Origin: an uncultured Bacillota bacterium
Lineage (GTDB): Bacteria; Bacillota_I; Bacilli_A; RFN20; CAG-631
Length of the DNA: 64,000 bases
Direction of reading: 5' to 3'
Assembly: GCA_902491575.1 (NCBI GenBank)
Contig: CABUID010000004.1
Coordinates: forward strand, 2,627 to 66,626
Positions 15,300 to 42,795 of the stretch are shown piece by piece; the stretch's first letter is position 1, and each line of letters begins with the position of its first letter. The translations under genes and the position numbers were made by a program. Below the pieces are notes generated by a model that saw only the letters and a list, made by a program, of their open reading frames with translations, did not search any database and had not been told where the DNA came from.

Positions 15300-16052
15300 T
15301 TAATTCATTTCAATGTCATTCAATGAATTGATTTTTCTTGTAGATAAATATAATGGCATAAAAAAGATGAAAACCATCATAATTGTAATAATACTATTGA
15401 CTAAAGCAGAAGGTGTTTTTAAGATGGATGCAACCACTGCACTATGAAAGTTTTCTCCAACCAATACTAAAAATAAAGTTCGCAAGATAAATTCTAAAAT
15501 CACATTCACCATTACGCCTATGGATGAAGATAGAATAACTAATCTTAATAGTTTTTGAATTTTATGACCGATTAAAAGTAAAACAAGAAAGAGAATTGAA
15601 AACACATACATTAGTATTGCAGACAATAAAAATAATAAAGGCTCTTTTAATAATTCAGGTTGTGTAAAATAAAGAAATAAAGAAAGGCTACCTATTATAA
15701 GAAATATAATGGATAATATTAAAGGTAAAATTTTATATTCTTTTTCTTTTTTTAAAAGTACTCTCAATAAACTGCCAACGATAAAACAAAAACAAAATTT
15801 AACGATAAATGTTCGAATAAAAGTAGTATAAGGGTATCCGTTGATAATATCGTATAAACCCATTCCTATAGAACCAGATATTCCTCCGATAAGACCACCA
15901 AATAATAACGCTGCTAATATAGCGACAAAATTTCCTAGATGAATCATTCCGCCAATGGAAAAATTAATTTTAATATAAGTCGCCGCAAAAGTTAAAGATA
16001 TAAATAAAGCTGTATAAACCATTTTTAATAATAATTTTCGAGTTTTTTTCAA
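15300..16052 (-). CDS. Integral membrane protein, possibly an ECF-transporter S-component-like protein.
   Basis: Six or more predicted TM helices; 'GNFVAILAALLFGGLIGGISGSIG'. Confidence 0.35.
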   Translation of the reverse strand: MKKTRKLLLKMVYTALFISLTFAATYIKINFSIGGMIHLGNFVAILAALLFGGLIGGISGSIGMGLYDIINGYPYTTFIRTFIVKFCFCFIVGSLLRVLLKKEKEYKILPLILSIIFLIIGSLSLFLYFTQPELLKEPLLFLLSAILMYVFSILFLVLLLIGHKIQKLLRLVILSSSIGVMVNVILEFILRTLFLVLVGENFHSAVVASILKTPSALVNSIITIMMVFIFFMPLYLSTRKINSLNDIEMN

Positions 16053-17578: not shown

Positions 17579-18595
17579 TTAAATAATAGAATTAAATATT
17601 TCTTTTAATTTAGTTTGCTGACCAATATTACTTGAGTTTAATTCATCAAATGATTCTTCCAAAATCATATTGTTTGGCTTTTTTATTAACATTTTAATTT
17701 TCATAGAAATTTCTTGTATACTTTTCACATCGAAAATTATATAAGATGGTTTTAAATTTTTAAAAAGATCTTTACATCCTGTATTATTTGACATTAACAA
17801 ACTACATCCTGAGTAAAATGCTTCTATTAATGCAATGCCAAATGATTCAAACGTACTGTTTTGAATGTAAATATTTGATTCATTTAAATTTGCAATAAAC
17901 TCATTGTGTGAGATTTGACCCATCCATTTTACAAAATTATATGTTTTAATTTCTTTATCTTTATTACCATTTGAACCAAAAACACGATATTCAATATTAA
18001 ATCCTTCTTGAATTAATTTTTCAATTGCTTTCGCTACAAATAAATTATTTTTTATATCACTACCTCCGCCTGCAGATGAAATAATAATTCTTTCATTGTC
18101 CTTATAATGAATTTTATTTTCTATTTTTTTTAAATTAATGGTATGATAAATATAATCAAATTTATTTGCATAAATTGCATAATTTTCTTTCATAAATTCA
18201 GAAAAAAATTTTGAAACACAAATGATTTTAGTTGATTTTTTTAAAATATAATTATCATATTTTTTTGCAGCTTTTGCAATCTCAATTGGCATGTCATTCC
18301 ATTGCGCTTCAAGTGATGGACATCCATGCATCAAGTAAATAATAGGCTTTCTTAATATTTTTGCGCATCTAAAGGCGAAAAAATTTATTCTAGATTTTGA
18401 ACAAACAAATAAAGCATCACAATTAATTATTTTAAAGAAACAATCTATAACTCTTTTTAAAAGATTTTTATTTTTACTTTTTTTAACAATAAAGTTTGAA
18501 TTTAAATTATTAAAAATTATTCTATTCGCATTAGCTGGTCCTGTATTCGATTCAAAATCACCTAACATATAAATTTTTTTCATTTTGGTTTTCAT
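17579..18595 (-). CDS. Glycosyltransferase family 1 (GT-B fold).
   Basis: C-terminal 'ESFGIALIEAFYSGCSLLMSNNTG' is the GT1/GT4 EX7E-like region. Confidence 0.65.
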   Translation of the reverse strand: MKTKMKKIYMLGDFESNTGPANANRIIFNNLNSNFIVKKSKNKNLLKRVIDCFFKIINCDALFVCSKSRINFFAFRCAKILRKPIIYLMHGCPSLEAQWNDMPIEIAKAAKKYDNYILKKSTKIICVSKFFSEFMKENYAIYANKFDYIYHTINLKKIENKIHYKDNERIIISSAGGGSDIKNNLFVAKAIEKLIQEGFNIEYRVFGSNGNKDKEIKTYNFVKWMGQISHNEFIANLNESNIYIQNSTFESFGIALIEAFYSGCSLLMSNNTGCKDLFKNLKPSYIIFDVKSIQEISMKIKMLIKKPNNMILEESFDELNSSNIGQQTKLKEIFNSII

Positions 18596-18633
18596 CTCCT
18601 CAACATTTTATTTTAAAAATTAATATAATTTTT

Positions 18634-20148
18634 TCATTTTTTAATAAATGTTATATAAAAGTTATGAATATTTTCTCTGTTAAGGATGAATTCAATAACT
18701 GCAACGATGACGAGTGAAATGCCAGTAACTTCTAATGCATTTATTATCCATCCACCATAACTAGTTGTTGAAATAGTCATCCAACTTGTCGATAGAACAA
18801 TTAAAAAAATAATAATTATATCTACAAAACATTGTTTTAAAAACAATGTAAATTTTCTATTTAAGATGTTTTTATGCAAATAAATTGTTTCATAAATTAC
18901 AAAGAATACAGTAGAAACGATAGTTCCAATTGCAACACCCACTAAACCATAATTAAAAACTAATACCACTGAAATTAAAACATTTAAAATTGTTTCTATT
19001 AATGATGCTTTTTGTGTTTGTTTATAATGTCCTGCTGCTTTTATTAATGTAAAATATCCATTTCGAATCAAATTCATAAAACCTGCTATTATGATTAAAA
19101 TTGCAAATAAAGGAACATTATAATTTGCATCTTCAATTCCATTTGTATAAATTAATACAAATGGAACAATTAAAATACCAGTAATTGTAAATAGCATTAC
19201 TCCTATTGTGTGCAAAAACCATTCAAAAGTATTAAAAGTAGAATTTAAATAGTTCATTTCTTTTTTGGCAATGATATTACCAAATGTAGCTAAAAAACCA
19301 TTAGTTAATGAGTTAATCATTGTTTTTATACTATTCACTACTAAAAAATAAATATTATATATTGCTACATTTGCAAGTGAAGATAAACATGTCAACACAA
19401 TAACATCGGTATTTTCATACACCATATAAGATATATGTTGAATAATTCCATTGCTTTTTTGAGGTAAACACGCAAAATCTGGTTTAATTTTTTTATCTAA
19501 TTTATAATGTTTTCTTACATATAATGCCATCAAAAGAGGTCTAAAAAGATAAATAATAGATGTCGATAACTTAACCAATTGAATATTACATCCATTAATC
19601 ATTAATAACACACATAATAAAGTATTTATTAATAATGTAAGACCATTTATTATATATTGAATATAAGATTTTTGATCTGCATTGATAAGAATTTGATAGC
19701 TTATACCTAAAAAATATTGAGAAAACTGAGAAATGCACATTGCTAAAATTAAAGAAACAGTAAACCAAAGGTCAAATTCATTAGCAACAATATTCGGATA
19801 AACAAAAATCAATATAACAACATATGCCACTAATATATAACTTACAACTCTAAAATATTTTTTAGCTGTAAAATAGATTCTAGATACTTCATTAGTATTG
19901 TCATCTGCTAATGGCTTGTATAATGCAGAAGAAACTACTGCTCCTATTCCTAAGTCACATATATTAATAAAAGATAAAAATTGAGTAATGGATGAAACTA
20001 ATCCATAAACACTAGAACCATAATAACGCAAAAAAAACTTAGGCAATATAAATCCACTAATTATTAATATAACTTGATAAGTTAATCCAAATATGGAACT
20101 TAATTTTAATTTTTTGATTCTATCATTACTTTGCATTTTTTTCACCAC
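18634..20148 (-). CDS. wzx: Oligosaccharide flippase (Wzx, MOP superfamily).
   Basis: 504 aa with about 12-14 TM helices; matches the polysaccharide biosynthesis protein family pattern. Confidence 0.7.
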   Translation of the reverse strand: MVKKMQSNDRIKKLKLSSIFGLTYQVILIISGFILPKFFLRYYGSSVYGLVSSITQFLSFINICDLGIGAVVSSALYKPLADDNTNEVSRIYFTAKKYFRVVSYILVAYVVILIFVYPNIVANEFDLWFTVSLILAMCISQFSQYFLGISYQILINADQKSYIQYIINGLTLLINTLLCVLLMINGCNIQLVKLSTSIIYLFRPLLMALYVRKHYKLDKKIKPDFACLPQKSNGIIQHISYMVYENTDVIVLTCLSSLANVAIYNIYFLVVNSIKTMINSLTNGFLATFGNIIAKKEMNYLNSTFNTFEWFLHTIGVMLFTITGILIVPFVLIYTNGIEDANYNVPLFAILIIIAGFMNLIRNGYFTLIKAAGHYKQTQKASLIETILNVLISVVLVFNYGLVGVAIGTIVSTVFFVIYETIYLHKNILNRKFTLFLKQCFVDIIIIFLIVLSTSWMTISTTSYGGWIINALEVTGISLVIVAVIEFILNRENIHNFYITFIKK

Positions 20149-20478
20149 TTAAAATTTTCACAAAATACAATCTAAATATCGATATTTTATTTCATCTAAA
20201 GAATTATTTTGATTACTGTATTTAATTTATCAACTTTTGAAATAAATCCTTTAAAAACAATAGCCTTATCTGAAATAGTCAGTATAAAAATTTTAATCTC
20301 TTTCATATTATTCTATTTACTGAGTAGTATAATATAAAAAGAAAAAGTCGAAAGAAATAAAAGATGATTCAACTTTTACGATTTTTATACCACATTTTTA
20401 TTATATCATATTAGCCAAAAATATAAACACATGATTAAACTGTTATGTTCTTTCAAAAAATTCTTACATCATCTTTTT

Positions 20479-21624
20479 TCATAATTGCTTTTTTAATTCA
20501 ATAGAATATTTACAGGCAATGCTTAATATAATTATAACTAAAAATCCATTTATTGTAGATTCTGTTAAACCATTTATAAGAAGTATACACAACGCAATAA
20601 ATATAATCTTATGTCTATTGTCTTTAAAATCCAAATTTTTTATAGTTTTAAAAAATAAAATAGCAAAAAGCACTAAAGCGATAATTCCTCCTTCCATAAG
20701 AATTTCTAGAATGAAATTATGCGCTTCATAAATAGTTTGTTTTACTCCCCATGTATTAACATAAGATAACTCAACGCCTCGACCAGCACCAATAAACCAG
20801 TTATCCTTAATTAATTCTTCAGCAAGTTTCCAAATAGTTGTTCTTGAAGTTAATGTAGCATCTTTTCCTATAAAATTAGTAAATTTTTGCCAAAATTCTG
20901 TAAGCAAAAAAGAGTCCATAAATAAAAGAAATAAAGCATAAACTGTAAAAATAATTCCTAAATATAAACCTTTTTTAGGTTTAAACTTAATACTTAAAAG
21001 TAATAATAGTATTGTACATGAAGCAACAACTATTCCTGTTCCACTTGAGCCAATAAAAATAGTTAGTAAACTACTGATTACGACTATCACTGCAAATTTG
21101 CTTAATTTACCATATTTTTCAAATGAATTAATAATTACTAAAAATAAGCCTGGAATTAAAAATATACCTAACGCATTTTTTCCACCGATAAAATATTCAG
21201 TATTCACTGAATTTCTATTTATCAACATAACCAAAAAATTGATAACTAATGTGGCAATAATAATAATAAAAACCGCGCTTAACATGTCATCATAATAATC
21301 TGTTTGAAGCAAAGTAAATATTAAAACAGAAGCGACAATAACTGTAATAATACCAGGACTAATACCATTATTAAATATGCTACTAAAAAGAATTATAAAC
21401 TGGTATATGCCAAAAATTCCTATCGACCAATTTAATTTTATTTTCGTTGCTTTCATAATTAATAATATTAAAAGTATAGCTACCGATATGATTTGCCATG
21501 CCTGATAGATATTTGAACTTATTATATTTTTAATTCCTGAAAGACTTAAAAAAGGTATAATCAAAAAAATAAATAATAATATTATGAAATAATTACTTTT
21601 TCTTTTTACTTTTTCCATAATCAA
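20479..21624 (-). CDS. wzy: O-antigen ligase/Wzy-type polysaccharide polymerase.
   Basis: Polytopic membrane protein with a large periplasmic loop ('EAHNFILEILMEGG'), lying in the cps operon. Confidence 0.55.
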   Translation of the reverse strand: MIMEKVKRKSNYFIILLFIFLIIPFLSLSGIKNIISSNIYQAWQIISVAILLILLIMKATKIKLNWSIGIFGIYQFIILFSSIFNNGISPGIITVIVASVLIFTLLQTDYYDDMLSAVFIIIIATLVINFLVMLINRNSVNTEYFIGGKNALGIFLIPGLFLVIINSFEKYGKLSKFAVIVVISSLLTIFIGSSGTGIVVASCTILLLLLSIKFKPKKGLYLGIIFTVYALFLLFMDSFLLTEFWQKFTNFIGKDATLTSRTTIWKLAEELIKDNWFIGAGRGVELSYVNTWGVKQTIYEAHNFILEILMEGGIIALVLFAILFFKTIKNLDFKDNRHKIIFIALCILLINGLTESTINGFLVIIILSIACKYSIELKKQL

Positions 21625-22517
21625 TTACCTTTAGTCCTTTTTTTCAATTTTGTTTTCATAACTTGTCTTATTCTAAAATACCCTATCCCAAGGATAAAAT
21701 ATATTTGATTAATATTTAATAAACTAGCTGACTCCCTTATTTTTAACCCTTTGAGTTTTGAAACATAATAAAATTCACCACATTTGTTTAAGGAAGGAAA
21801 AAACGAGTGAGTTTCCAAAAATAATTTAGAACAATAAATAAATCCTAAAAAATTATTTGCATAAGTATTTTCATTAGTTTGTTTAGTTAATCCATCTTCT
21901 TTATATTCACATATATAAATTACTTCATTATACCATCTTATCTTAAGTCCATCTTTTGCAATACGATCCCAAACAGCAGATTCTCTTATAAAGTTTTCAT
22001 TTTCAAATTCAGGAAACGGATATTGTTTTAATACATCTGTTTTGTATATCTCTGCTTTATCCCCAAGTAAATTATATTTTTTCCTTTCCAAATTTGTGGC
22101 ATCAATGAAATATGATTGCGGTGAACCTCCAATTGTAGTATTCCCGTCAGCCTTTAACCCTGCAACTCCAGCAAATCCTTCCAATCCAGAAATATCTAAA
22201 ATCCATTCATGAACTTTTTCCACAGCATTTTCTGTAAGTTGATCGTCGCTATCAAGAATTAATAAATAATCATAATTTGCTAATGAGACAGCTCTATTTA
22301 CTGCGCGATGTTTTCCGCCATTTTTTTGTTTTTCATAAATAATAGAAAAATTATGTTCTTCTTTTAACCATTGTTTTACAATAGTTTCTGTTTCATCTGT
22401 CGACCCATCATCAATAATTATCCATTCAAAGTCTAGCAACGTCTGCTTTTTTAATGATTGATATGCTTTAGACAAAATATATGCCCTATTATATGTTGGC
22501 GTCACTATAGTAATCAT
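21621..22517 (-). CDS. Glycosyltransferase family 2.
   Basis: 'ITIVTPTYNRAYIL...IIDDGSTDETETIV...ILDSDDQL' shows DxD and GT-A signatures. Confidence 0.75.
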   Translation of the reverse strand: MITIVTPTYNRAYILSKAYQSLKKQTLLDFEWIIIDDGSTDETETIVKQWLKEEHNFSIIYEKQKNGGKHRAVNRAVSLANYDYLLILDSDDQLTENAVEKVHEWILDISGLEGFAGVAGLKADGNTTIGGSPQSYFIDATNLERKKYNLLGDKAEIYKTDVLKQYPFPEFENENFIRESAVWDRIAKDGLKIRWYNEVIYICEYKEDGLTKQTNENTYANNFLGFIYCSKLFLETHSFFPSLNKCGEFYYVSKLKGLKIRESASLLNINQIYFILGIGYFRIRQVMKTKLKKRTKGN

Positions 22518-22603
22518 ATCTTTTTACCTTACTTTCTATTTAAACCATAATAAATTTTTTTTGAACTGTTTATTACAAATATAGTTTGTTTTTTCTATGG
22601 TTT

Positions 22604-23401
22604 TCATATATTTATCCCCTTTGATTTTTTTAAATATTTCATTTTCCCTGCTTTCATTAACTTAATAGCTTTTATTGTCGATATATTTTCTTTATATAAA
22701 CTTCTTTTTCTTATTGCCCATTGACATATTAATAAAATAGTAAATGGTGTTTTCATTGCCGCAAATGATGCTCCCTTACCAATGAAATATTTTTCATTTC
22801 TCTTTGTAAACCAAGTTGAATCTCCTATATGCAAATCAGCAATTTCTTTTGGAATATAAAAAATTTTTAACTTTTTACGCAAGCATTGGAATAACAAAGC
22901 ATTTTCTTCTCCCATCATAAATTCTGTTCCTGCACCAATAACTTCATCAAATTGTATATTTTTTTCTACAAAACTAGTTCTTTTAAATGCAAGTTCTACC
23001 GATGCCATTTTCATTGAATTTAAATATTTTATTCTTTTTGCCTTTGTTGAATAATCTTTAAACTTTTTTTCTATTCCACATACTTGAAAACCTATAATAT
23101 CCACATTAAATTTTGAAAAAGCTGTTAAAACTATATTTACATAATTACTTCGATATTCCATATCATCATCCGCAAGCATACAAATATCTGCAGTAGCATT
23201 GCGAATTGCCATGTTTCTACTTTTACTTAATCCTCTTTCAGTTGTATCTATCCACAAAATAGTATGGTTATTATATTTAATTGATTCAATTTTTTCTTTA
23301 TTGCATTGATTGATTACTACCGCATCAGATGAGATTTTCATTTTTTTTAGCAGCGAATGATCTATTTGATTCATCGTTGAAATAAGAAGTTGTAAAGTCA
23401 T
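22604..23401 (-). CDS. GT-A fold glycosyltransferase-like protein.
   Basis: 'ICMLADDDMEY' is a DxD-like motif. The stop overlaps the upstream GT4 gene by 4 nt. Confidence 0.45.
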   Translation of the reverse strand: MTLQLLISTMNQIDHSLLKKMKISSDAVVINQCNKEKIESIKYNNHTILWIDTTERGLSKSRNMAIRNATADICMLADDDMEYRSNYVNIVLTAFSKFNVDIIGFQVCGIEKKFKDYSTKAKRIKYLNSMKMASVELAFKRTSFVEKNIQFDEVIGAGTEFMMGEENALLFQCLRKKLKIFYIPKEIADLHIGDSTWFTKRNEKYFIGKGASFAAMKTPFTILLICQWAIRKRSLYKENISTIKAIKLMKAGKMKYLKKSKGINI

Positions 23402-24600
23402 TGCACTTCACCTGCTATCATATTAATAATTTCTTGGTATGTTTTACTTCTGTCAAATCTTTCCTCTGCTAATCTTCGACTATTCATCCCCATTCGCTGA
23501 CGCGTTATCTCGTTTTCTATAAGAAAACGAATAGCTTTTGCCAATGATTGGACATCACCCGGGAAACACATCAAACCCGCATCATATTGTCTTAACAATT
23601 CTCCAAATTCTTGATTTTTTTGAACATTAATTATTGGAAGTGCTGCTGATACATAATCAGCATGTTTATTTATTATGCTCCCTGTTGCTTTGCCAACAAG
23701 GACATTAATTCCTATATCACATTTTACAAGGATCTTAATCATATTTTCATAAGTCAATCTACCAGTAAAGCGAACAGGGAGATGATTTTGCTTTGCATAA
23801 ATTTCAAATTTTTCTTTCATGGGACCATCTCCCATAATTAATAACTCTACTTTATCACAACCTTGTGTTATTAATAATTTCATTGCATCCATAACACCAC
23901 ATAAGTCATAGCTATGTCCAAGCATTCCTATATAGGCCATTGTAATAGGACGTAGTTTCCCTTTTAATGGTAACGCAGTTTTAGCTATTCTATCAAAATA
24001 ATTAATATCTGTACCAATAAATACGCTATGTCCCTTTATCATCTTAGAATTATTTTGTGTTGCTCTTTGAACATATGAATTTGAAACGGCAACTACCTCA
24101 CTTGCATTAAGATATGCAAAATCAATTTCTTTTTTCATTGGATACAATAATATTTTTGAAATAAAATTTGGCAAAAATATTTCAAATGCTTCTGGCCAAA
24201 GATCTAAAATATCAATTATTATACGAATATTGTTCTTTCTTGCAAACTTAACAACTTTTTTTGCCAAAAATGTAGGTGGGACAAATAGATAAATTACATC
24301 TGGCTTTGTTTGCTTTTTAAGATATTTAATGACATTTTTAGCAAAATGGCGATGAGCAAACAAACGCGAAAGTGAAATATTTTTTCTATAGGTTCCTTCC
24401 TCAAGCAAGGTCGCTTTGTAAGAAATATCCCTTAATACTTCAATTTCACTTCTTTGTTTTTTCGCGGTATGATAAAATTTTGAAGTAATCACTTCCACAG
24501 ATATTCCTTTTTTAACCGCAAGCGTTGCTATTGTATGATAACGACTACTTGTTTTTTCAACTGGAAAATGCCAATAATTAGATATAATAATTGCTTTCAA
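23398..24600 (-). CDS. Glycosyltransferase family 4 (GT-B fold).
   Basis: 'ISLSRLFAHRHF...' N-terminal domain plus C-terminal 'GDGPMKEKF...' GT1-type domain; 400 aa. Confidence 0.7.
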   Translation of the reverse strand: MKAIIISNYWHFPVEKTSSRYHTIATLAVKKGISVEVITSKFYHTAKKQRSEIEVLRDISYKATLLEEGTYRKNISLSRLFAHRHFAKNVIKYLKKQTKPDVIYLFVPPTFLAKKVVKFARKNNIRIIIDILDLWPEAFEIFLPNFISKILLYPMKKEIDFAYLNASEVVAVSNSYVQRATQNNSKMIKGHSVFIGTDINYFDRIAKTALPLKGKLRPITMAYIGMLGHSYDLCGVMDAMKLLITQGCDKVELLIMGDGPMKEKFEIYAKQNHLPVRFTGRLTYENMIKILVKCDIGINVLVGKATGSIINKHADYVSAALPIINVQKNQEFGELLRQYDAGLMCFPGDVQSLAKAIRFLIENEITRQRMGMNSRRLAEERFDRSKTYQEIINMIAGEVQ

Positions 24601-24604
24601 AATA

Positions 24605-25609
24605 TCACACTCCTAACAAATATTTTAATGGTTTCTTAATTTTCTTAAAAGGCAAAGCTCTTAAGACAATTAAAATAATAACTGGAATTAAATAACCCAA
24701 TATACTCATTGCAATTGCAGTAATTGCTACACTTAAATTCAAAAGTTGATAGAATAAAATGCGAACTAAAATCATTATAGGCCAATGCATAATATATATG
24801 CCAAATGAGAATGATGCAAGTTTTTCAAAAAATGGTGACAAAGATTCAATGGATGTAGAAATAGAAAGAAATGTCATTAAAATAAAAATACAAGGAATGA
24901 AATGTAATGGTTTTGTTTGCTCATACCAAATTAATGAAATAATAGAAAAAAGAATTGCACCACATATAAATCCTAATCGAAATCTTTTCATCACTATAAT
25001 AAATTTGTCACTTCTCATTTGCCCCAATAAACAACCAATAACGAAGAAAAGTAAATCCTTGTGCAAATCACTTAAAGCTAAAAACTCAGTATTTATAGGC
25101 AATATATAAAGGAAAATACAAAATACTATTGCAATTGTTGAAATCCACACTTTTTTTGTTTCAAATAGTTTTTGGAATAAAGGAGTAGCCAAATAAACTA
25201 TAAACAATGCTACCAAAAACCATGTATGTCCCCAAACGTTTTGGCGTGGAAAAACAAAAGCTTTTAATATATCTAATACATTGAATGACACTTTATCTGA
25301 AAGATAATCTTGAAATAAAAATTTAGGTACCCAAAAAATTATGTTCCAAATAAAATAAGGAAGTAATAGACGTTTTGACTTATTAAAAATAAATTTAATA
25401 TATGATTTTTCTCCTTGATATCCTTTAAATGATAATAAATACCCACTAATCAAAAAGAATAAAGGCATATGAAAAATATAAATCCACTCTTTTGAAAAGA
25501 TATACCAAGCACCTGTTGATTGAAGGCCATTTAATGAATGTCCTAACACAACAAAAATGGGACCTATAATTTGTAATAGACTTATATATGTAATTCTTTT
25601 ATTCTCCAT
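24605..25609 (-). CDS. Acyltransferase family 3 (membrane O-acyltransferase).
   Basis: 'ISLLQIIGPIFVVLGHS' N-terminal motif; ten predicted TM helices. Confidence 0.6.
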   Translation of the reverse strand: MENKRITYISLLQIIGPIFVVLGHSLNGLQSTGAWYIFSKEWIYIFHMPLFFLISGYLLSFKGYQGEKSYIKFIFNKSKRLLLPYFIWNIIFWVPKFLFQDYLSDKVSFNVLDILKAFVFPRQNVWGHTWFLVALFIVYLATPLFQKLFETKKVWISTIAIVFCIFLYILPINTEFLALSDLHKDLLFFVIGCLLGQMRSDKFIIVMKRFRLGFICGAILFSIISLIWYEQTKPLHFIPCIFILMTFLSISTSIESLSPFFEKLASFSFGIYIMHWPIMILVRILFYQLLNLSVAITAIAMSILGYLIPVIILIVLRALPFKKIKKPLKYLLGV

Positions 25610-26636
25610 ATTCTATCAAAGCCTTCCTTATGTTATTTTTTTCAAATAAAATAGTCAATTCATTAATTGTTTCACATGTTAATTCTACACTTTTTCCATT
25701 GCACATTTCACTTTTTTTGTTTCCTATTTCTCCAGGATAAAACACTTTCCCAGAAGCATGTACCTCATCTATATATTCATCCATTTGTTTATAAAATGAA
25801 TCTCCTAAAATTATCGACGGATTAATAGCTATAAAGGACTGTCCAACATTCATACATTTATTGTCATCTGAATAAAATCTATTTATATGATTCAAATAAC
25901 CTGCACCTGACAAAACTCCAGAAAGAATATCTATTGCCATAGCGATGGCATATCCTTTATGTTCAGCCATAGGCAAAATCATACCTTTAATTGCTTTTTC
26001 TGGGTCTGTTGTAGGATGTCCGTTTTCATCAACAGCCCACCCAATTGGTATTTTACCACCTTGTTTACGAATTTCATTTATTTTAGATTTGGCTACAATA
26101 CTCGTTGCCATGTCAATTAATATAGGGCTGTTCTTATCAGCAGGAATACCAATAGCAAAGGGGTTTGTTCCTAAAATTTTTATATTACCTCCCCAAGCAG
26201 GCATTGCTGAAGGGCTATTAGATAAGCATATTCCTATCATTTTTTGTGTTGTGGCCTTTTTAACATATCTAAAAGCTGCTCCAAATGTATTTGCATTACG
26301 GCAAAACACTGTATAAATGCCTGTTTGAAGAGCTTTTTCTAACGCAATTTCCATACATCTATCTGCAGAAACTACTCCTATTTGATTATTTGCATCTAAA
26401 ATTGTAAAAGATGGAGTCTGTCTTAAAATTATACTCTCCTCAGTCAAATTAAAGCCTTTATTTTGAATTTTTTTTATATACACAGGAAAAATAGATACGC
26501 CATGTGTGTGTACACCTCGCATATCTGCTTCAAGCATAGAATCAACTAAAGTTTCAGCTTGTTTTTCACTAACTTTATTTTTTTTTAATATTTCAATTAA
26601 AGCACTCTTTAATTCAATGATGGAATATCTTTTCAT
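25599..26636 (-). CDS. Ldh_2 family (malate/L-sulfolactate dehydrogenase-type) NAD(P)H-dependent 2-oxoacid oxidoreductase.
   Basis: 'MRGVHTHGV', 'LGTNPFAIGIP' and 'HKGYAIAMAIDILSGVLSG' are typical of PF02615. SD 'GAGGAAAA' precedes the ATG. Confidence 0.7.
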   Translation of the reverse strand: MKRYSIIELKSALIEILKKNKVSEKQAETLVDSMLEADMRGVHTHGVSIFPVYIKKIQNKGFNLTEESIILRQTPSFTILDANNQIGVVSADRCMEIALEKALQTGIYTVFCRNANTFGAAFRYVKKATTQKMIGICLSNSPSAMPAWGGNIKILGTNPFAIGIPADKNSPILIDMATSIVAKSKINEIRKQGGKIPIGWAVDENGHPTTDPEKAIKGMILPMAEHKGYAIAMAIDILSGVLSGAGYLNHINRFYSDDNKCMNVGQSFIAINPSIILGDSFYKQMDEYIDEVHASGKVFYPGEIGNKKSEMCNGKSVELTCETINELTILFEKNNIRKALIEYGE

Positions 26637-26642
26637 TTTTCC

Positions 26643-27335
26643 TCATTTCTCGATGTTATCCTTTGAATTTGTTTCGGATTCATCGTCTATATTTTCTGTT
26701 ATTACTGTAGTTTTAGAATTTGATTTTTTTTCTATAGTAATATTTTTATTTTCATTATCTGCATTCGAAAGTACTTTCCAAATTGTAATGAAAAAAATAC
26801 GTAAATCTAAAAGAAATGAAACATGTTCAGCGTAATAAACTCCCATATTAATACGATCAACCCACATAACATCTTTTCTGCCATGTATTTGTGCCCATCC
26901 TGTAACACCAGGGCGTACTTCAAACATTTTACGCTGCTCATCGTCATAGTCCTCAAACGGCCAGGGATGATAAGTAAGAGGTGGTCGAAATCCTATCAAG
27001 GACATATCTCCTTTTATGATATTTATTAATTGTGGTAGTTCATCAATACTTGTAGCTCTTATTACACGTCCAACTTTAGTGACTCTTGGATCACCTTTAA
27101 ACGAATATTGACCAGAGCCCTTATTTTCAGCATCTACACACATTGAACGAAATTTATAAATTGTAAATGGTTTCCCATGCCTTCCTAATCGTGTTTGTTT
27201 AAAAATTACTGGACCAGGTGTTTCTAGTTTTATAGCAATTGCAACAATCAAAAAAACAGGTGAAAGTAATATCAAAACTAAAAAGGAAAAAAATAAATCA
27301 AATAAGCGTTTTAAAAAATTTTTATATATTCTCAT
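26643..27335 (-). CDS. Undecaprenyl-phosphate sugar phosphotransferase (small PglC/WbaP-C-type priming transferase).
   Basis: 'LKRLFDLFFSFLVLILLSPVFLIVAIAIKLETPGPVIFKQTRLGRHGKPFTIYKFRSM...DELPQL'. 'AAAGGAG' lies upstream of the ATG at 27335; the track's TTG start falls inside the SD. Confidence 0.8.
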   Translation of the reverse strand: MRIYKNFLKRLFDLFFSFLVLILLSPVFLIVAIAIKLETPGPVIFKQTRLGRHGKPFTIYKFRSMCVDAENKGSGQYSFKGDPRVTKVGRVIRATSIDELPQLINIIKGDMSLIGFRPPLTYHPWPFEDYDDEQRKMFEVRPGVTGWAQIHGRKDVMWVDRINMGVYYAEHVSFLLDLRIFFITIWKVLSNADNENKNITIEKKSNSKTTVITENIDDESETNSKDNIEK

Positions 27336-28161
27336 TTTTATTTTTACTCCTTTTGACAATCTCTTCTACACATTTTTGAATATATTTAATATTATTCAAA
27401 AATGACTGAGTTTCATTTAAATCTATTTTTGTTTCAAATTCTCTTAATTTTTTTAAATTTTCCGAAAACGATTTTTCTAATTTCGAAATCTCAGAAAACT
27501 CTTCTATATTGCAAAAACTTCTCGACAAAATCGCTCTTGTAGACCCAAGTCTATAATGTTCCATAATAATACTTTCTGCAGGAAGTAATCCCTCACCAAT
27601 ACATGCGATTCCCCCAAAGCCATAAGGTATACCAGCTTTTTTAAATTTTTTACAAAGTGTTTCTACCAAACCATTTGCTAATAGTTCAAACATAAACGTG
27701 AGTCCATAACTAAGATGCAAATCATTCAAACCAATATGAATTTCATCGAAACCACCCATTTCAAGAACTTCATCAATACATTCTACTGCTTCTTTCGTTT
27801 CTAGCAAAAGAATTGTTTTAGTTCTATTTTTAACAAATTTGAGAAATTCTTTAACTTCTTTAGGCGTTTTCCACATTGGTAACATGATTAAATCTGCACC
27901 AGCAATTATTACCTGATTAATTTCTTTTTCAGAAGTTTCATTTAAAGGATTAATCCGTACAAGCATTTCTGAAGTTTCTAACAAATTAGATATAATTCTA
28001 ATATCCTGAATACAATGATGCGATTTCACTGTATTTATATTATGTTGCCGTTCTTCTTTACCAAGGACTTCGAGATCAACCCAAATTCTTTCAACACCAT
28101 TTTTTTCAGCAATCTTAGCAATTGCTGGATTGTTTGTTATATACATTAAAGTCAATGGCAT
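27322..28161 (-). CDS. HpcH/HpaI aldolase / citrate-lyase beta-like family protein (class II pyruvate aldolase fold).
   Basis: 'ITNNPAIAKIAEKNGVERIWVDLE', 'VRINPLN', 'AGADLIMLPM', 'LLLETKEAVECIDEVL...DEIHIGLNDL' match PF03328. The start is assigned to M22, which has an AGGA SD. It overlaps the PGT start by 14 nt. Confidence 0.55.
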   Translation of the reverse strand: MPLTLMYITNNPAIAKIAEKNGVERIWVDLEVLGKEERQHNINTVKSHHCIQDIRIISNLLETSEMLVRINPLNETSEKEINQVIIAGADLIMLPMWKTPKEVKEFLKFVKNRTKTILLLETKEAVECIDEVLEMGGFDEIHIGLNDLHLSYGLTFMFELLANGLVETLCKKFKKAGIPYGFGGIACIGEGLLPAESIIMEHYRLGSTRAILSRSFCNIEEFSEISKLEKSFSENLKKLREFETKIDLNETQSFLNNIKYIQKCVEEIVKRSKNKNENI

Positions 28162-28519
28162 CGTATCACGTCCTATCTTCAAAATAATGTGTGTTATATT
28201 CAAAAGTAAAATTTTACTAAACATTTTTCAAAATATACTGAAAAAAGTTATCTTGACAAATATTTTTCTTCCTATATTCTTTCTGCTTGTATGACTTACC
28301 TATTATACTAATAGGTATATTTAGACTTTAATAGTATGGCATATTTATTGGAATAATTCAATTACAATTAAATATAAGTTTGTATTTATCGTAATTATAA
28401 GAAAAAATCGATTTCAATGCAACCTACAAATGTAATTTAATTATGTAGATAATAGAAATGTATAAATCTTATTTCATCTATTACAATTATTTCACTTTAT
28501 GGAAAATATAAGTATCATT

Positions 28520-30460: not shown

Positions 30461-30617
30461 AACACTATTAATAAGTTAATAAATATTATTAACTTTTATT
30501 AATCATATCATAGAATCGTGTTAGATACAATTTAAATAATTTGGAAAACTACGTAATCCGAATATTTATAATCACTTTTATGAATGAAAGCGTTAACAAA
30601 AAAACTTAGACCATTGT

Positions 30618-31295
30618 CTAAGTCTTTTCATTAAGAAAATTAAATTCAAAAAGTTGATTATTCTTACACTTTTCCTTAGCCAGTAATAAATTTGAAGGAC
30701 GAAATGAATGAACATCGGAGGCAACAATATCGACTAAATTATTTTTAAGTAACTTTTGAACTAATTTATACTCTCTTTTATTCGTTAATTTCAAAATTGA
30801 ATTTGCATTAATTTGGATAAATGCACCTTCTTTTCTTAATTGAATAATTTTTTCAATGGTCATCCATTCATATCTTTCAACATGTGCGATAATCACTTTA
30901 TAATGAAAACATGTAAAATTATAAATTAATTCCAGTAAATCTTCTGGTTCATAAACGAAGGAAAATTCAAGTAAAATATATTGACTTTGATTCATTGTTA
31001 AAAGCTTATTTTGATTTAACATCTCAATGATATTTTCATGTCGAGAATAATAAATTTCTTGACCAAGTAACAAATGAATCTTTAAATTTTGCTTTTTCAC
31101 TTCTTCTAAAAGTACTTCAAAGTAATGTTTTATTTCTTCTACACTTTTTTCATATTTTGAATAGATATGATGTGGAGTACAAACAATTGTATCCACTCCC
31201 ATAGAAATTTCGTTTTTTATCATCTCAATAGAGTCTTTTAATGAAGTACTGCCATCATCTACAAATGGAATAATATGTGTGTGAATATCAATCAT
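30618..31295 (-). CDS. cpsB: Tyrosine-protein phosphatase CpsB/CapC (PHP family).
   Basis: 'MIDIHTHIIPFVDDG' start and 'HVERY' motifs. Confidence 0.85.
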   Translation of the reverse strand: MIDIHTHIIPFVDDGSTSLKDSIEMIKNEISMGVDTIVCTPHHIYSKYEKSVEEIKHYFEVLLEEVKKQNLKIHLLLGQEIYYSRHENIIEMLNQNKLLTMNQSQYILLEFSFVYEPEDLLELIYNFTCFHYKVIIAHVERYEWMTIEKIIQLRKEGAFIQINANSILKLTNKREYKLVQKLLKNNLVDIVASDVHSFRPSNLLLAKEKCKNNQLFEFNFLNEKT

Positions 31296-31304
31296 ACTTT
31301 TTTA

Positions 31305-32033
31305 TTATTCATTACTTTCTGAATAATCTTGGTAATAATAATGATATCGACTATTCCCATACCCACTTTTATCTTTTCTTGAAATTCCTGTAACAATGCT
31401 ACCTAAAAGATTCACGTTATTATTTTTTAATAGTTTTATGGCTTCTTTAGCAGCTGTTTTTTCTGTTAATTTTTGTGAAACAACAAATAAACATCCATCC
31501 GTATATTTTGATATTACGACAGCATCGGATACAGCTAATATTGGTGGGCAATCTACAAGAATAACATCATACATCTCACGTAATTGGTTCATTACCTTTT
31601 CTAGTTCTTTAGAGCCTAATAAAGCCGTTGGATAAGGTGTCTTTGTTCCACGATTAATTAAATCAAAAGGTAATTTATCCGAATGTTTAATAGCATCATT
31701 TATCGTAATATTTCCTGTTAAAACATCTGTAATTCCTTTTTCATTTGGAAGATAAAATGCACGATGAAGTTTTGGTCTTCTAAAATCTAAATCTAAAACA
31801 ATGACTTTCTTTTTGCTCTCTGCATAGGTTGCAGCTAAATTTAACACTGTTGTGGTCTTTCCTTCACCTTGCAAAGAGGAACAAACTTGAATCACTTGAA
31901 TTTTTTTATCTACTTCAGAATACTCAAGTCCAACTTTCACTCTTCGATAAGCTTCCGCTAAAATCGATAAAGGCTCTTCTAATGTTACAATATGTGTATA
32001 CGTTTCTGTCATCTCTATTTTGTTCTTTTTCAT
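31305..32033 (-). CDS. cpsD: Tyrosine-protein kinase CpsD/CapB (BY-kinase cytoplasmic domain).
   Basis: Walker A 'GEGKTTTVLNLA', Walker A' 'VLDLDFRRP', Walker B 'VILVDCPP', and a C-terminal Tyr cluster 'YGNSRYHYYYQDY'. Confidence 0.85.
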   Translation of the reverse strand: MKKNKIEMTETYTHIVTLEEPLSILAEAYRRVKVGLEYSEVDKKIQVIQVCSSLQGEGKTTTVLNLAATYAESKKKVIVLDLDFRRPKLHRAFYLPNEKGITDVLTGNITINDAIKHSDKLPFDLINRGTKTPYPTALLGSKELEKVMNQLREMYDVILVDCPPILAVSDAVVISKYTDGCLFVVSQKLTEKTAAKEAIKLLKNNNVNLLGSIVTGISRKDKSGYGNSRYHYYYQDYSESNE

Positions 32034-32049: not shown

Positions 32050-32811
32050 TTAATTTGTTTTATCGGAAATATATTCTGGAATTCCAGATAAAACAGGAAG
32101 ACCTAATACTTTTTCAACTTCTTCAGAATTTTTAAATTTATTATCTGTTAGTTCACGAATTAAAACATATAGTAAAGAAAGCACAATTCCTACAGCAAAA
32201 AAGATAACTACATATTTTCTGGTATAACTAACTTGAGTAATGGTATTTTCGCTTGCATTATTTAAAATTACAATATTTTCATATAAAAATTTATTGACAG
32301 GTTTATTATTTACATCTACTTCATTTGCTTTTTCAATGACGGTTTCCATCAAAGTATTTAATATAACAATCGCTTTATCAGGATTATTAGCTGTATAAGT
32401 CAAATCCAAAATTAAAGAAGAACCCGATATTTGTGCATTAAAACTTCTTTTTAAGGTATTAATGGTCAATTCAGGATAGTCTTGTTTTAGTTTATCTACT
32501 GTAGCACCTAAAACACTATCTTGTGATAAATAAACAACATAAGTATTAATTAAGTATTGTGATAATTGATAATTTTGATAATCGGATAAACTTGATCCAT
32601 TTGAATTACCATCTACAGACACCATCATCGATGAATTTGCATTATATTGTGGATGTTTTGCTTGTTTAAATTTTGCAAAGCCAAAACCAATTACTGTAAA
32701 AACAATAATCGTAATGCATATCACGATAAGATGTTTACGAACGATATGTAATAAATCTTGAAAAGATAGTCCTTCTTTTTCTTCAACTATTTTTTCTGCT
32801 TCATTTTCCAT
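32050..32811 (-). CDS. cpsC: Capsular polysaccharide chain-length determinant / BY-kinase transmembrane activator (CpsC/CapA, Wzz-like).
   Basis: Two TM helices flank a periplasmic domain. It lies immediately upstream of the kinase. Confidence 0.75.
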   Translation of the reverse strand: MENEAEKIVEEKEGLSFQDLLHIVRKHLIVICITIIVFTVIGFGFAKFKQAKHPQYNANSSMMVSVDGNSNGSSLSDYQNYQLSQYLINTYVVYLSQDSVLGATVDKLKQDYPELTINTLKRSFNAQISGSSLILDLTYTANNPDKAIVILNTLMETVIEKANEVDVNNKPVNKFLYENIVILNNASENTITQVSYTRKYVVIFFAVGIVLSLLYVLIRELTDNKFKNSEEVEKVLGLPVLSGIPEYISDKTN

Positions 32812-42640: not shown

Positions 42641-42795
42641 GTACCCGCGGGCTCCAAGGGTACTTTAAAATTAAAAATTTTTGCTTCTTTCATCCAGACT
42701 TTACTGTCGGCACTAGAATTTCACTAGTTCATGCTAAATAGCTCGTGGGCTTTACCACCGGTTCGGAATTACACCTGACCCTGAAGACATTATTA
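42641..42795 (-). promoter_or_regulatory. FMN riboswitch (RFN element) with intrinsic terminator expression platform.
   Basis: Minus-strand RNA 'CUUCAGGGUCAGGUGUAAUUCCGAACCGGUGGUAAAGCCCACGAGC...GUGCCGACAGUAAAGUCUGGAUGAAAGAAG' matches the conserved RFN core. 'GUACCCuuggagcccgcGGGUAC' plus U8 lies immediately before the ribU SD. Confidence 0.8.

What the first reader, a model, noticed from the sequence alone, without database searches (positions are those of the whole stretch)
25599..28161. HpcH/HpaI-type aldolase plus Ldh_2-family 2-oxoacid dehydrogenase embedded in a capsule operon
Two enzymes that do not belong to the usual sugar-nucleotide toolkit are translationally coupled inside the cps operon. 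The aldolase-like gene overlaps the priming transferase start by 14 nt, and the Ldh_2 gene lies 6 nt after the transferase stop. Known HpcH/HpaI members are class II pyruvate/4-hydroxy-2-oxoacid aldolases or CoA-ester lyases. Known Ldh_2 members (L-sulfolactate, malate, ureidoglycolate and 2,3-diketogulonate dehydrogenases) reduce 2-oxo acids to 2-hydroxy acids. Together they could make a 3-deoxy-2-ulosonic or aldonic acid, or a hydroxy-acid substituent such as lactyl, glyceryl or malyl, that is attached to the repeat unit. I know of no characterised cps or eps locus with this pair.
Basis: partly seen in the sequence, partly recalled or inferred. Interest (0 to 1): 0.7.

Follow-up and report, generated by a model that had tools for sequence, protein, structure and literature searches.

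The report
Aldolase-like capsule-priming cassette with oxoacid reductase
The two odd enzymes are real, and they belong to a widespread, uncharacterised gene cassette in which an aldolase-like enzyme sits beside the transferase that starts capsule assembly, so they probably build an unusual acidic first sugar for the capsule of gut bacteria.

Summary
A divergent HpcH/CitE-type TIM-barrel enzyme (27322-28161), a small priming transferase (PGT, 26643-27335) and an Ldh_2 oxidoreductase (25599-26636) are translationally coupled on the minus strand of a Wzy-type capsule operon.

The pairing is not a chance insertion. The aldolase-like family occurs in at least 560 species genomes. In 70 of 71 usable loci a small PGT lies within four genes of it.

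Its other partners are interchangeable and all are 2-oxoacid or amino-acid enzymes: Ldh_2, a D-2-hydroxyacid dehydrogenase, or a branched-chain-type aminotransferase with or without a DAP-decarboxylase-like enzyme. Natural fusions join the aldolase-like domain to a PGT, Ldh_2, the dehydrogenase, the decarboxylase, a GT4 and a CapD-type dehydratase domain.

The aldolase-like protein is equally conserved across cassette types. The PGT mostly groups by partner type.

Best reading, inferred and not shown: the aldolase-like enzyme attaches a pyruvate-derived 2-oxoacid arm to the priming nucleotide sugar, plausibly CapD's 4-keto product. Ldh_2 reduces that arm to a 2-hydroxy acid, and the PGT loads the product onto undecaprenyl phosphate. 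The substrate is unproven, and most loci lack a dehydratase in cis. I found no paper describing the cassette.

The parts
32050..32811 (-). Wzz-type chain-length protein, first gene of the capsule operon
   Evidence: PF02706, E 3e-8
31305..32033 (-). CpsD/CapB-type tyrosine kinase (P-loop)
   Evidence: AAA_31 and ParA hits
30618..31295 (-). CpsB/CapC PHP phosphatase
   Evidence: PF19567, 189.5 bits
28520..30460 (-). CapD/PglF-type membrane-anchored UDP-HexNAc 4,6-dehydratase (CoA_binding_3 plus Polysacc_synt_2). Candidate supplier of the 4-keto sugar.
   Evidence: PF02719, 382 bits, and PF13727. It is the only extended SDR in the 64-kb window, and the window has no DegT, PglD or reductase partner.
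28162..28519 (-). Intergenic gap upstream of the cassette. Function unknown.
   Evidence: Read. It holds one promoter-like match (28259-28232), but such matches are not above chance here. No Rfam hit. No conservation with the upstream regions of other loci.
27322..28161 (-). HpcH/CitE-superfamily TIM-barrel enzyme (279 aa). It is the constant first gene of the cassette and the proposed C-C bond-forming (pyruvate-adding) enzyme.
26643..27335 (-). Small monotopic phosphoglycosyl transferase (priming transferase). Its start overlaps the previous gene by 14 nt.
   Evidence: PF02397, 224.7 bits. Best solved relative is PglC at 154 bits, against 125 for WbaP. The KFRSM, DELPQL and RPGVTGWAQ motifs are read.
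25599..26636 (-). Ldh_2-family NAD(P)H oxidoreductase. It is the cassette-specific tailoring enzyme and the proposed 2-oxo to 2-hydroxy reductase.
   Evidence: PF02615, 345 bits. Nearest solved relative is ComC (2x06) at 206 bits. It scores below every NCBIfam equivalog cut-off. Its clade has lost ComC's HGIGR arginine and NANHFG histidine.
24605..25609 (-). Acyl_transf_3 membrane acyltransferase, overlapping the Ldh_2 stop by 11 nt. It accompanies Ldh_2 in most cassettes of this type.
   Evidence: PF01757, 130 bits. The same position is occupied in L004, L016, L044, L051, L073, L093 and L095, and by a Hexapep acetyltransferase in L094.
17579..24600 (-). Rest of the repeat-unit machinery: GT4 (23398-24600), GT2 (22604-23401), GT2 (21621-22517), Wzy polymerase (20479-21624), a 504-aa polytopic membrane protein that is probably the flippase (18634-20148), and GT4 (17579-18595).
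   Evidence: Pfam hits. The 504-aa ORF has no Pfam hit but at least 10 hydrophobic segments. Nearly the same gene series follows the cassette in L004.

Best explanation
The three genes are one variant of a modular 'priming-sugar tailoring' cassette.

Shown: the HpcH-like enzyme is the constant member and is almost always encoded next to a small PGT. The variable members are all enzymes that act on a 2-oxo-carboxylic acid or on the amino acid derived from it.

Inferred mechanism:
1. The HpcH-like enzyme uses a Mg2+-bound pyruvate (or related 2-oxoacid) enolate to form a C-C bond with a carbonyl on the nucleotide sugar destined for priming. In this window the obvious electrophile is the UDP-4-keto-6-deoxy-HexNAc made by the adjacent CapD. 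The product would be a 4-C-(2-oxo-2-carboxyethyl) branched sugar, the same skeleton as shewanellose.
2. Ldh_2 reduces the side-chain 2-oxo group to a 2-hydroxy acid. The acyltransferase encoded next may acylate it.
3. The PGT transfers the finished sugar-1-phosphate to undecaprenyl phosphate.
4. The GT4 and GT2 enzymes, Wzx and Wzy build and export the polymer.

Sister cassettes would make the D-hydroxy acid (2-Hacid_dh), the amino acid (aminotransferase alone) or the aminoethyl-type amine (aminotransferase plus decarboxylase).

My confidence is about 0.45 for the general scheme, in which a 2-oxoacid arm is built on the priming sugar and then tailored. It is about 0.3 for the specific C-4 branching of CapD's product.
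For: Linkage:
- At least 560 species genomes carry the HpcH-like gene.
- In 71 loci with enough flank, 70 have a PGT within four genes downstream.
- The module persists with permuted gene order in Methylosinus, Paucibacter and Bacteroides caecimuris.

Interchangeable, non-homologous partners, all 2-oxoacid or amino-acid enzymes:
- Ldh_2, 2-Hacid_dh, an IlvE-like aminotransferase and a LysA/FslC/BtrK-like decarboxylase.

Fusions:
- PGT-HpcH (6 of 150 representatives), PGT-GT4-HpcH, GT4-HpcH, HpcH-Ldh_2, HpcH-2-Hacid_dh and HpcH-decarboxylase.
- HpcH fused to Polysacc_synt_2, the CapD dehydratase domain (P0187).
- CapD's TM plus CoA_binding_3 anchor fused to HpcH, and aminotransferase fused to GT2.

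Order of steps:
- HpcH-like proteins are about 62% identical both within and between cassette types.
- PGTs fall into clusters that match cassette type: 52/52 for aminotransferase plus decarboxylase, 3/3 for aminotransferase only, and 15 for the acid and partner-less types. Identity between clusters is about 40%.
- The B. caecimuris, L093 and L094 PGTs follow the same rule.
- 2-Hacid_dh loci keep a 127-aa decarboxylase remnant after HpcH. The PGT and the tailoring gene were therefore swapped together.

No activating enzyme:
- The conserved core holds no ligase or nucleotidyltransferase.

Catalytic competence:
- Confident TIM-barrel model. The Arg and the Glu/Asp metal pair are invariant at strand ends.

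This window:
- CapD is present with no aminotransferase or reductase to use its product.
- CapD sits directly upstream of the cassette in L094 and L095 and elsewhere.

Substrate-pocket changes:
- The aminotransferase pocket has W126 changed to K/R.
- The Ldh_2 clade has lost two ComC active-site residues. Both changes suggest non-standard, probably bulky or anionic, substrates.

Chemical precedent:
- PF03328 aldolases add pyruvate to hydroxylated ketones, including a keto sugar, to give tertiary alcohols (PMC7610986).
- Shewanellose is 2-acetamido-2,6-dideoxy-4-C-(3'-carboxamide-2',2'-dihydroxypropyl)-D-galactose (PMC4052302).
- L077 has a dehydratase, anchored HpcH, a PGT and an AsnB-like amidotransferase in a row.
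Against: - No activity was measured and the substrate is unknown.
- Only 12 of 50 loci have CapD within three genes upstream. Only 27 of 71 have any extended SDR within about 10 kb. For most cassettes the keto sugar would have to come from elsewhere in the genome, or the electrophile is something else.
- The PGT-to-type correlation could be plain genetic linkage, because the PGT lies between the tailoring genes. It is also not absolute. The L095 (Ldh_2 type) PGT is nearer the amine-type cluster, and the proteobacterial PGTs are about 30% identical to every cluster.
- The HpcH-like protein lacks HpaI's His45 and the loop between strands 4 and 5. Its Arg-to-Glu spacing (52 residues) resembles CitE-type acyl-CoA lyases (my recollection: about 48) more than HpaI (about 79). 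Pyruvate kinase is as close structurally as the aldolases.
- The 80 genome loci are those most similar to the query, so type frequencies are biased.
Confidence: 0.45

Rival explanations
1. The aldolase-like enzyme and Ldh_2 make a free small hydroxy acid from central metabolites, for example a 2,4-dihydroxy acid, glycerate, lactate or malate. That acid is later attached as a side substituent of the repeat unit.
For: - Both families normally act on small free acids.
- No keto sugar is needed, which fits the many loci without a dehydratase.
- An acyltransferase follows Ldh_2 in most Ldh_2-type cassettes.
Against: - The conserved core has no ligase, CoA-transferase, kinase or nucleotidyltransferase to activate a free acid or amine.
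- It does not explain the near-obligate adjacency and fusion to the PGT, or the fusions with GT4, GT2 and the CapD domain.
- The amine-type cassettes have no acyltransferase at all.
- The Ldh_2 clade and the aminotransferase have altered substrate pockets.
Confidence: 0.17
2. CitE-type acyl-CoA lyase route. The HpcH-like enzyme condenses acetyl-CoA (or propionyl-CoA) with a 2-oxoacid such as glyoxylate or pyruvate. This gives malyl- or citramalyl-CoA, which the Acyl_transf_3 protein transfers to the polymer. Ldh_2 and the other partners supply the 2-oxoacid.
For: - The N-terminal half matches CitE best in NCBIfam (TIGR01588, E 1e-5).
- The DLE motif and short Arg-to-Glu spacing are CitE-like.
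- From my own knowledge: Acyl_transf_3 members such as ExoH transfer dicarboxylic acyl groups.
Against: - Acyl_transf_3 accompanies only the Ldh_2 type. A cytoplasmic Hexapep enzyme replaces it in L094.
- Most cassettes (54 of 71) carry an aminotransferase plus a decarboxylase, which makes no sense as an oxoacid supply.
- It does not explain the PGT linkage.
- No CitE-type C-terminal CoA-binding domain was detected by Pfam.
Confidence: 0.08
3. Phosphonate or sulfonate route. The HpcH-like enzyme works like a PEP mutase or ComA and makes phosphonopyruvate or sulfopyruvate. That product is pulled forward by reduction (Ldh_2, 2-Hacid_dh) or by transamination plus decarboxylation, giving aminoethylphosphonate or taurine-like head groups.
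For: - Ldh_2's closest characterised relative is sulfolactate dehydrogenase.
- The aminotransferase pocket gains a Lys/Arg.
- Fusion of HpcH-like to the downstream enzyme would suit an unfavourable equilibrium.
- The fold belongs to the same PEP/pyruvate superfamily.
Against: - The PEP-mutase signature EDKxxxxxNS is absent in 0 of 270 family members.
- The ComC residues expected to hold the substrate are lost in the cassette Ldh_2 clade.
- No cytidylyltransferase or LicD-type transferase is in the conserved core; these occur in only a few loci.
- Cassettes without any tailoring enzyme exist.
Confidence: 0.06
4. Accessory or regulatory role. The HpcH-like protein binds PEP or pyruvate and controls or drives the PGT, for example by metabolite sensing or by removing UMP, rather than modifying a sugar.
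For: - The GLNDL motif resembles the GTNDL motif of PEP-utilising enzymes (my recollection).
- Fusions exist to a response-regulator receiver (P0126) and to the membrane anchor shared by large PGTs and CapD.
- PGT activity is known to be regulated by partner proteins (PMC12802240, abstract).
Against: - It does not explain three unrelated families of 2-oxoacid enzymes, a decarboxylase and their fusions to the HpcH-like domain.
- The full set of catalytic-type residues is conserved.
Confidence: 0.07

Closest known systems
PglF-PglE-PglD-PglC (di-N-acetylbacillosamine) and S. aureus CapD-CapN-CapM (D-FucNAc) priming pathways
   Same: - A membrane-anchored 4,6-dehydratase sits upstream.
- Soluble enzymes tailor the nucleotide sugar.
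- A dedicated small monotopic PGT loads the product onto undecaprenyl phosphate.
- Tailoring enzymes are sometimes fused to the PGT.
- The window's PGT scores best with PglC among solved structures.
   Different: - There is no DegT aminotransferase, PglD acetyltransferase or SDR reductase.
- The tailoring enzymes are instead an HpcH-like lyase plus 2-oxoacid enzymes.
- The PGT lacks the GLLLP motif of diNAcBac-specific PGTs.
- A dehydratase is absent in cis from most cassettes.
HpcH/HpaI class II pyruvate aldolases (HpaI, YfaU/RhmA, GarL, SwHKA)
   Same: - TIM-barrel fold.
- An Arg plus a Glu/Asp metal pair at equivalent strand ends.
- Pfam PF03328 is matched above its threshold.
- Family members can add pyruvate to hydroxylated ketones.
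   Different: - Only 12-20% identity to the solved relatives overall.
- Only profile positions 8-160 are matched.
- The roughly 25-residue insertion between strands 4 and 5 is missing, as is the histidine next to the DxE motif.
- It has its own invariant Lys/Arg-rich loop (K35, R38, K46, H49) and an N146-D147 pair.
- It is found in polysaccharide loci, not in catabolic ones.
CitE-type acyl-CoA lyases, CLYBL, malyl-CoA lyase and the SbnG citrate synthase
   Same: - Short Arg-to-Glu spacing and a DLE motif.
- From my own knowledge: SbnG works in a pathway that also contains a DAP-decarboxylase-family enzyme.
   Different: - No recognisable CoA-binding C-terminal domain.
- No CoA-handling partners in the cassette.
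- The context is different.
ComC L-sulfolactate dehydrogenase and the other Ldh_2 oxidoreductases (type-2 malate dehydrogenase, AllD, YiaK)
   Same: - Full-length Ldh_2 fold match.
- The histidine of the HG motif is conserved.
- These enzymes carry out NAD(P)H-dependent 2-oxoacid reduction.
   Different: - It scores 271 bits against the 500-bit equivalog cut-off.
- The arginine of ComC's HGIGR is hydrophobic in 120 of 120 clade members.
- The histidine of ComC's NANHFG is Thr in 119 of 120.
- The clade is dedicated to the cassette.
Shewanellose, the C-4-branched 6-deoxy-HexNAc of Shewanella putrefaciens A6
   Same: Its structure is formally the aldol adduct of a pyruvate unit on a 4-keto-6-deoxy-HexNAc. 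That is exactly what the proposed first step would make.
   Different: - Its biosynthetic genes are unknown to me.
- No Shewanella locus was examined.
- It carries an amide and a hydrated ketone, not a hydroxy acid.
- The link is by chemical analogy only.

Membership tests
HpcH/HpaI aldolase / citrate lyase beta superfamily (PF03328) | Profile match above the curated threshold | tested here: met
   44.1 bits against a cut-off of 25, E 1.9e-11. Only profile positions 8-160 of 221 are covered. 139 of 150 family representatives match.
HpcH/HpaI aldolase / citrate lyase beta superfamily (PF03328) | (beta/alpha)8 barrel of the PEP/pyruvate superfamily | tested here: met
HpcH/HpaI aldolase / citrate lyase beta superfamily (PF03328) | Substrate-binding Arg plus the Glu and Asp that hold the divalent metal | tested here: met
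   R69, E121 and D147 are invariant. They align with the VR, ET and DL motifs of HpaI, YfaU and SwHKA.
HpaI/HpcH-type pyruvate aldolases in the narrow sense | The histidine next to the DxE motif, and the long loop between strands 4 and 5 | tested here: not met
   The motif reads D29-L-E31-V/T, with no His. Only about 25 residues separate PMW from LET, against about 47 in SwHKA. NCBIfam equivalogs score 17-25 bits against cut-offs of 369-443.
HpaI/HpcH-type pyruvate aldolases in the narrow sense | Pyruvate-dependent aldol addition or cleavage activity | not testable with these tools
   Needs an enzyme assay.
CitE-type acyl-CoA lyases | Equivalog profile match, and a C-terminal CoA-binding lid | tested here: not met
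   TIGR01588 scores 24.8 bits against a cut-off of 443. Pfam finds no C-terminal lyase domain. The C-terminus is modelled as two long helices.
PEP mutase | EDKxxxxxNS signature | tested here: not met
   Present in 0 of 270 family members. The PEP_mutase Pfam model gives only sub-threshold hits in two relatives.
Ldh_2 (type-2 malate/L-lactate dehydrogenase) family | Full-length profile match and the conserved catalytic His-Gly | tested here: met
   PF02615, 345.3 bits, profile positions 5-332 of 333. The HG motif is kept in 119-120 of 120 clade members.
L-sulfolactate dehydrogenase (ComC) as a specific function | Equivalog score and ComC's active-site Arg and His | tested here: not met
   NF040650 scores 271 bits against a cut-off of 500. 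The Arg of HGIGR and the His of NANHFG are replaced throughout the clade.
Monotopic phosphoglycosyl transferases (Bac_transf) | Profile match, the Asp-Glu dyad, and the re-entrant helix with Ser-Pro | tested here: met
   PF02397, 224.7 bits. DELPQL, LLSPVF and FRPP are read. It scores 154 bits to PglC.
UDP-diNAcBac-specific PGTs | The GLLLP loop motif and aromatic box described in PMC10186338 | tested here: not met
   The loop reads AENKGSGQYSFKGDP, with no GLLLP. The aromatic box was not evaluated.
PglFED/PglC-like priming-sugar pathway | A dehydratase, a DegT aminotransferase, an acetyltransferase and a PGT | tested here: not met
   CapD and a PGT are present. No DegT or PglD exists anywhere in the window. 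The cassette works like this pathway in outline but is not a member.

The most novel reading that the evidence does not exclude
The HpcH-like protein founds a family of nucleotide-sugar C-C ligases. These enzymes add a pyruvate unit to a keto sugar and so create C-branched, shewanellose-type first sugars. Swapping the partner enzyme turns the same intermediate into a hydroxy-acid, amino-acid or aminoethyl branch. This would be an unrecognised class of monosaccharides, and a new genetic route to acidic and zwitterionic capsules. It would be spread by gene transfer through hundreds of gut and rumen species across several phyla.
Probability: 0.3. Interest if true: 0.85.

Novelty: new variant of a known kind. 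Interest (0 to 1): 0.68.

Why it matters
Capsules of gut commensals shape immune recognition, phage sensitivity and colonisation, yet almost none of their structures are known. This cassette occurs in at least 560 species genomes. Some of its proteins are very abundant: one Bacteroides caecimuris copy is indexed in 1602 sample blocks, and one Ldh_2 copy in 491.

If the model is right, the cassette encodes a programmable way to put a carboxylate or an amine on the first sugar of the repeat unit. The amine versions, combined with uronic acids, would predict zwitterionic polysaccharides. That class is known for immunomodulation, and current gene-marker searches would miss these versions.

The cassette would also add a C-C bond-forming enzyme to nucleotide-sugar chemistry. 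It would give testable candidates for the orphan biosynthesis of shewanellose-like sugars. For annotation, 'aldolase/citrate lyase family protein' next to a 'sugar transferase' could be recognised as one functional unit.

Tried and rejected
**Literature**
- Eight full-text searches found no paper on this gene pair or cassette. The shewanellose search returned structural reviews only.

**RNA and regulatory signals upstream of the cassette**
- A conserved leader RNA upstream of the HpcH-like gene: no Rfam hit in the gap and no sequence conservation between loci.
- Promoter-like matches are at background frequency in this AT-rich DNA.

**Small upstream ORF**
- The 85-aa ORF upstream of the gene in some loci is not an acyl carrier protein. 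It has no phosphopantetheine-site motif.

**Rejected functional ideas**
- PEP mutase: the signature motif is absent.
- A strict requirement for CapD in cis: only about a quarter of loci have it.
- PGT substrate prediction from the diNAcBac motif: negative, and not informative beyond that.
- 'PGT type always follows cassette type': L095 is an exception and the proteobacterial PGTs carry no signal.

- The AFDB fold library was not available.
- Organism names could not be obtained for the window's own proteins.

Full report
**What is in the window**

The DNA is about 27% G+C. A Wzy-type capsule operon runs on the minus strand from about 32811 to 17579, in this order:
- Wzz, a CpsD-type kinase, a CpsB phosphatase and a CapD/PglF-type dehydratase;
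- a 358-nt gap;
- the HpcH-like gene (27322-28161), a small PGT (26643-27335), Ldh_2 (25599-26636) and Acyl_transf_3 (24605-25609);
- GT4, two GT2 genes, Wzy, a 504-aa protein with at least 10 hydrophobic segments, and GT4.

The coupling continues into the acyltransferase gene with an 11-nt overlap.

**Family assignments**

- Ldh_2 is unambiguous: PF02615, 345 bits. Its best solved relative is ComC sulfolactate dehydrogenase at 206 bits.
- The 'aldolase' passes the Pfam threshold (44 against 25 bits), but only over two thirds of the profile.
- Sequence matches to solved HpcH-family aldolases are weak. The best is E 1.9e-4 with the single sequence and 1.5e-6 with a family profile.
- An AlphaFold2 model is confident, with pLDDT 91. 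It is a TIM barrel.
- Residues that are invariant or nearly so across the family sit at the C-terminal ends of the barrel strands. They include R69, E121 and D147, which align with the aldolases' substrate Arg and metal ligands.
- The protein lacks the HpaI histidine and the long loop between strands 4 and 5. Its Arg-to-Glu spacing is CitE-like.
- It is therefore an active-looking, deep branch of the superfamily. It is not an orthodox HpaI aldolase.

**The pair is part of a cassette**

- The HpcH-like family is very large. The word-index search returned 8000 clusters, which is its cap. There are 1440 representatives at 50% identity. At least 560 of the species genomes scanned encode it.
- I fetched 80 genome loci and called and typed ORFs with seed searches.
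- Of 71 loci with enough downstream sequence, 70 have a small PGT within four genes.
- The other neighbours fall into a few types:
  - DAP-decarboxylase-like plus class IV aminotransferase: 54 loci;
  - aminotransferase alone: 3;
  - Ldh_2: 5;
  - 2-Hacid_dh: 1, plus several metagenome contigs;
  - none: 8.
- The aminotransferase is IlvE-like, at 303 bits against a cut-off of 279. The decarboxylase is nearest LysA, FslC and BtrK.
- Beyond these genes, the only one shared by most amine-type loci is a GT2 of about 255-290 aa.
- The same gene set appears with a different order in an alphaproteobacterium, a betaproteobacterium and Bacteroides caecimuris.
- Ldh_2 homologues at 54, 53 and 48% identity all lie after HpcH-like and PGT.

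**Fusions**

Among 150 representatives, the HpcH-like domain is fused to the following:
- a PGT (6 cases);
- the decarboxylase (3);
- 2-Hacid_dh (2);
- GT4 (2, one of them also carrying a PGT);
- Ldh_2 (1);
- a CapD-type Polysacc_synt_2 domain (1);
- a receiver domain (1);
- the TM plus CoA_binding_3 anchor that CapD carries.

The genome loci add an aminotransferase-GT2 fusion, an HpcH-decarboxylase fusion and a VanZ-PGT fusion.

**Order of action**

- HpcH-like proteins are as similar between cassette types as within them, at about 0.62 identity.
- PGTs are about 0.67 identical within a type and about 0.40 between the amine and acid types.
- Clustering separates the PGTs exactly by type in that set.
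- 2-Hacid_dh loci retain a 127-aa stump of the decarboxylase gene after the HpcH-like gene. Recombination has therefore replaced the PGT and the tailoring gene together, downstream of a constant HpcH-like gene.
- This pattern fits a common first step, type-specific tailoring, and a PGT matched to the tailored product.
- Two caveats apply. First, linkage alone could produce the correlation. Second, new loci gave one exception (L095) and no signal for the proteobacteria.

**Proposed mechanism**

Everything in this section is inference.
- All variable partners act on a 2-oxo-carboxylate or on the amino acid made from it.
- No activating or ligating enzyme is conserved in the cassette.
- Fusions tie the set to the PGT, to glycosyltransferases and to CapD.
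- The simplest scheme is therefore that the HpcH-like enzyme builds a 2-oxoacid arm on the priming nucleotide sugar.
- In this window CapD is present, and nothing else can use its 4-keto product.
- Class II aldolases of PF03328 add pyruvate to hydroxylated ketones, including a keto sugar.
- Shewanellose shows that nature makes exactly such a C-4 pyruvate adduct of a 6-deoxy-HexNAc.
- Ldh_2 would then give the 2-hydroxy acid.
- Two changes suggest unusual substrates. The aminotransferase pocket has W126 changed to K/R. The cassette Ldh_2 clade has lost ComC's Arg and His.

**Main weakness**

- Only about a quarter of loci have CapD upstream.
- Only 27 of 71 loci have any extended SDR nearby.
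- Either the keto sugar is supplied in trans, or the electrophile is different.

**Rival explanations**

These are a free hydroxy acid, a CitE-type acyl-CoA route feeding the acyltransferase, a phosphonate or sulfonate route, and a regulatory accessory of the PGT. None is excluded. Each explains fewer of the observations. The PEP-mutase signature is absent.

**Comparison with known systems, and novelty**

- In outline the cassette works like the PglF/E/D-PglC or CapD/N-CapM priming pathways. It shares none of their tailoring enzymes.
- No paper in the searchable library describes it.
- I rate it a new variant of a known kind, namely tailoring of the priming sugar coupled to a dedicated PGT. 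There is a fair chance that the chemistry itself is new.

Noticed in passing
window 42678-42792 (-), 41954-42634 (-), 15300-16052 (-): An FMN riboswitch (99.3 bits) lies directly upstream of a 226-aa ORF. Elsewhere in the window, an ECF-type riboflavin transporter S component flanks the capsule locus. Neither is related to the finding.
   Followed up: no
window 30593-30634 (-): A 19-pair terminator-like hairpin lies right after the cpsB stop and before capD. The capsule operon may be read in more than one unit. Terminator-like sites are about twice the shuffle mean in this region (8 against 3.6).
   Followed up: no
L001, L003, L015 (about 10834-11217 in L001); L011/L012 7028-7495: 2-Hacid_dh-type cassettes keep a 127-aa stump of the decarboxylase gene between the HpcH-like gene and the PGT. 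L011 and L012 also carry a truncated 155-aa PGT after a DegT gene, just upstream of the cassette. These are scars of cassette replacement by recombination.
   Followed up: partly
L077 7705-13580: The gene row is: soluble CapD-type dehydratase (360 aa), TM plus CoA_binding_3 plus HpcH-like (603 aa), VanZ-PGT fusion, then an asparagine-synthase-like amidotransferase. This is the set one would expect for a shewanellose-like carboxamide sugar.
   Followed up: partly
Class IV aminotransferases of 59 cassettes (e.g. L006 8781-9707): They pass the NCBIfam branched-chain aminotransferase cut-off. However, several side-chain pocket positions differ uniformly from E. coli IlvE: W126 to K/R, Y95 to S, R40 to P, V109 to S/A, M107 to W, and Y129 deleted. 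The catalytic K159, Y164, E193 and R97 aligned correctly.
   Followed up: partly
Ldh_2 clade, window 25599-26636 and P0273-P0391: Relative to ComC (2x06), the Arg of HGIGR is V/I/M/L in 120 of 120 sequences. The His of NANHFG is Thr in 119 of 120. The clade has a remodelled active site, and its substrate cannot be read from family membership.
   Followed up: partly
L095 6309-6974: This is an Ldh_2-type cassette whose PGT is closer to the amine-type PGT cluster (53%) than to the acid-type cluster (43%). It is an exception to the otherwise clean match between PGT clade and tailoring type.
   Followed up: no
L094 8055-8624 compared with window 24605-25609: The gene after Ldh_2 is a membrane Acyl_transf_3 in most loci, but a cytoplasmic Hexapep acetyltransferase in L094. 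This is a non-homologous swap that keeps an acyl-transfer step after the reduction.
   Followed up: no
P0126 (427 aa); L020 7840-9633: A response-regulator receiver domain is fused to an HpcH-like domain. Separately, a class IV aminotransferase is fused to a GT2 glycosyltransferase.
   Followed up: no
window 18634-20148 (-): A 504-aa ORF has no Pfam or NCBIfam hit but at least 10 hydrophobic segments. It sits where a Wzx flippase is expected. Similar ORFs of about 502 aa occur in 7 related loci.
   Followed up: partly
P0133, and L094 5465-6298: Some family members give weak hits to Pfam DUF7916 (PF25509). This uncharacterised family may be related to the cassette's HpcH-like branch.
   Followed up: no
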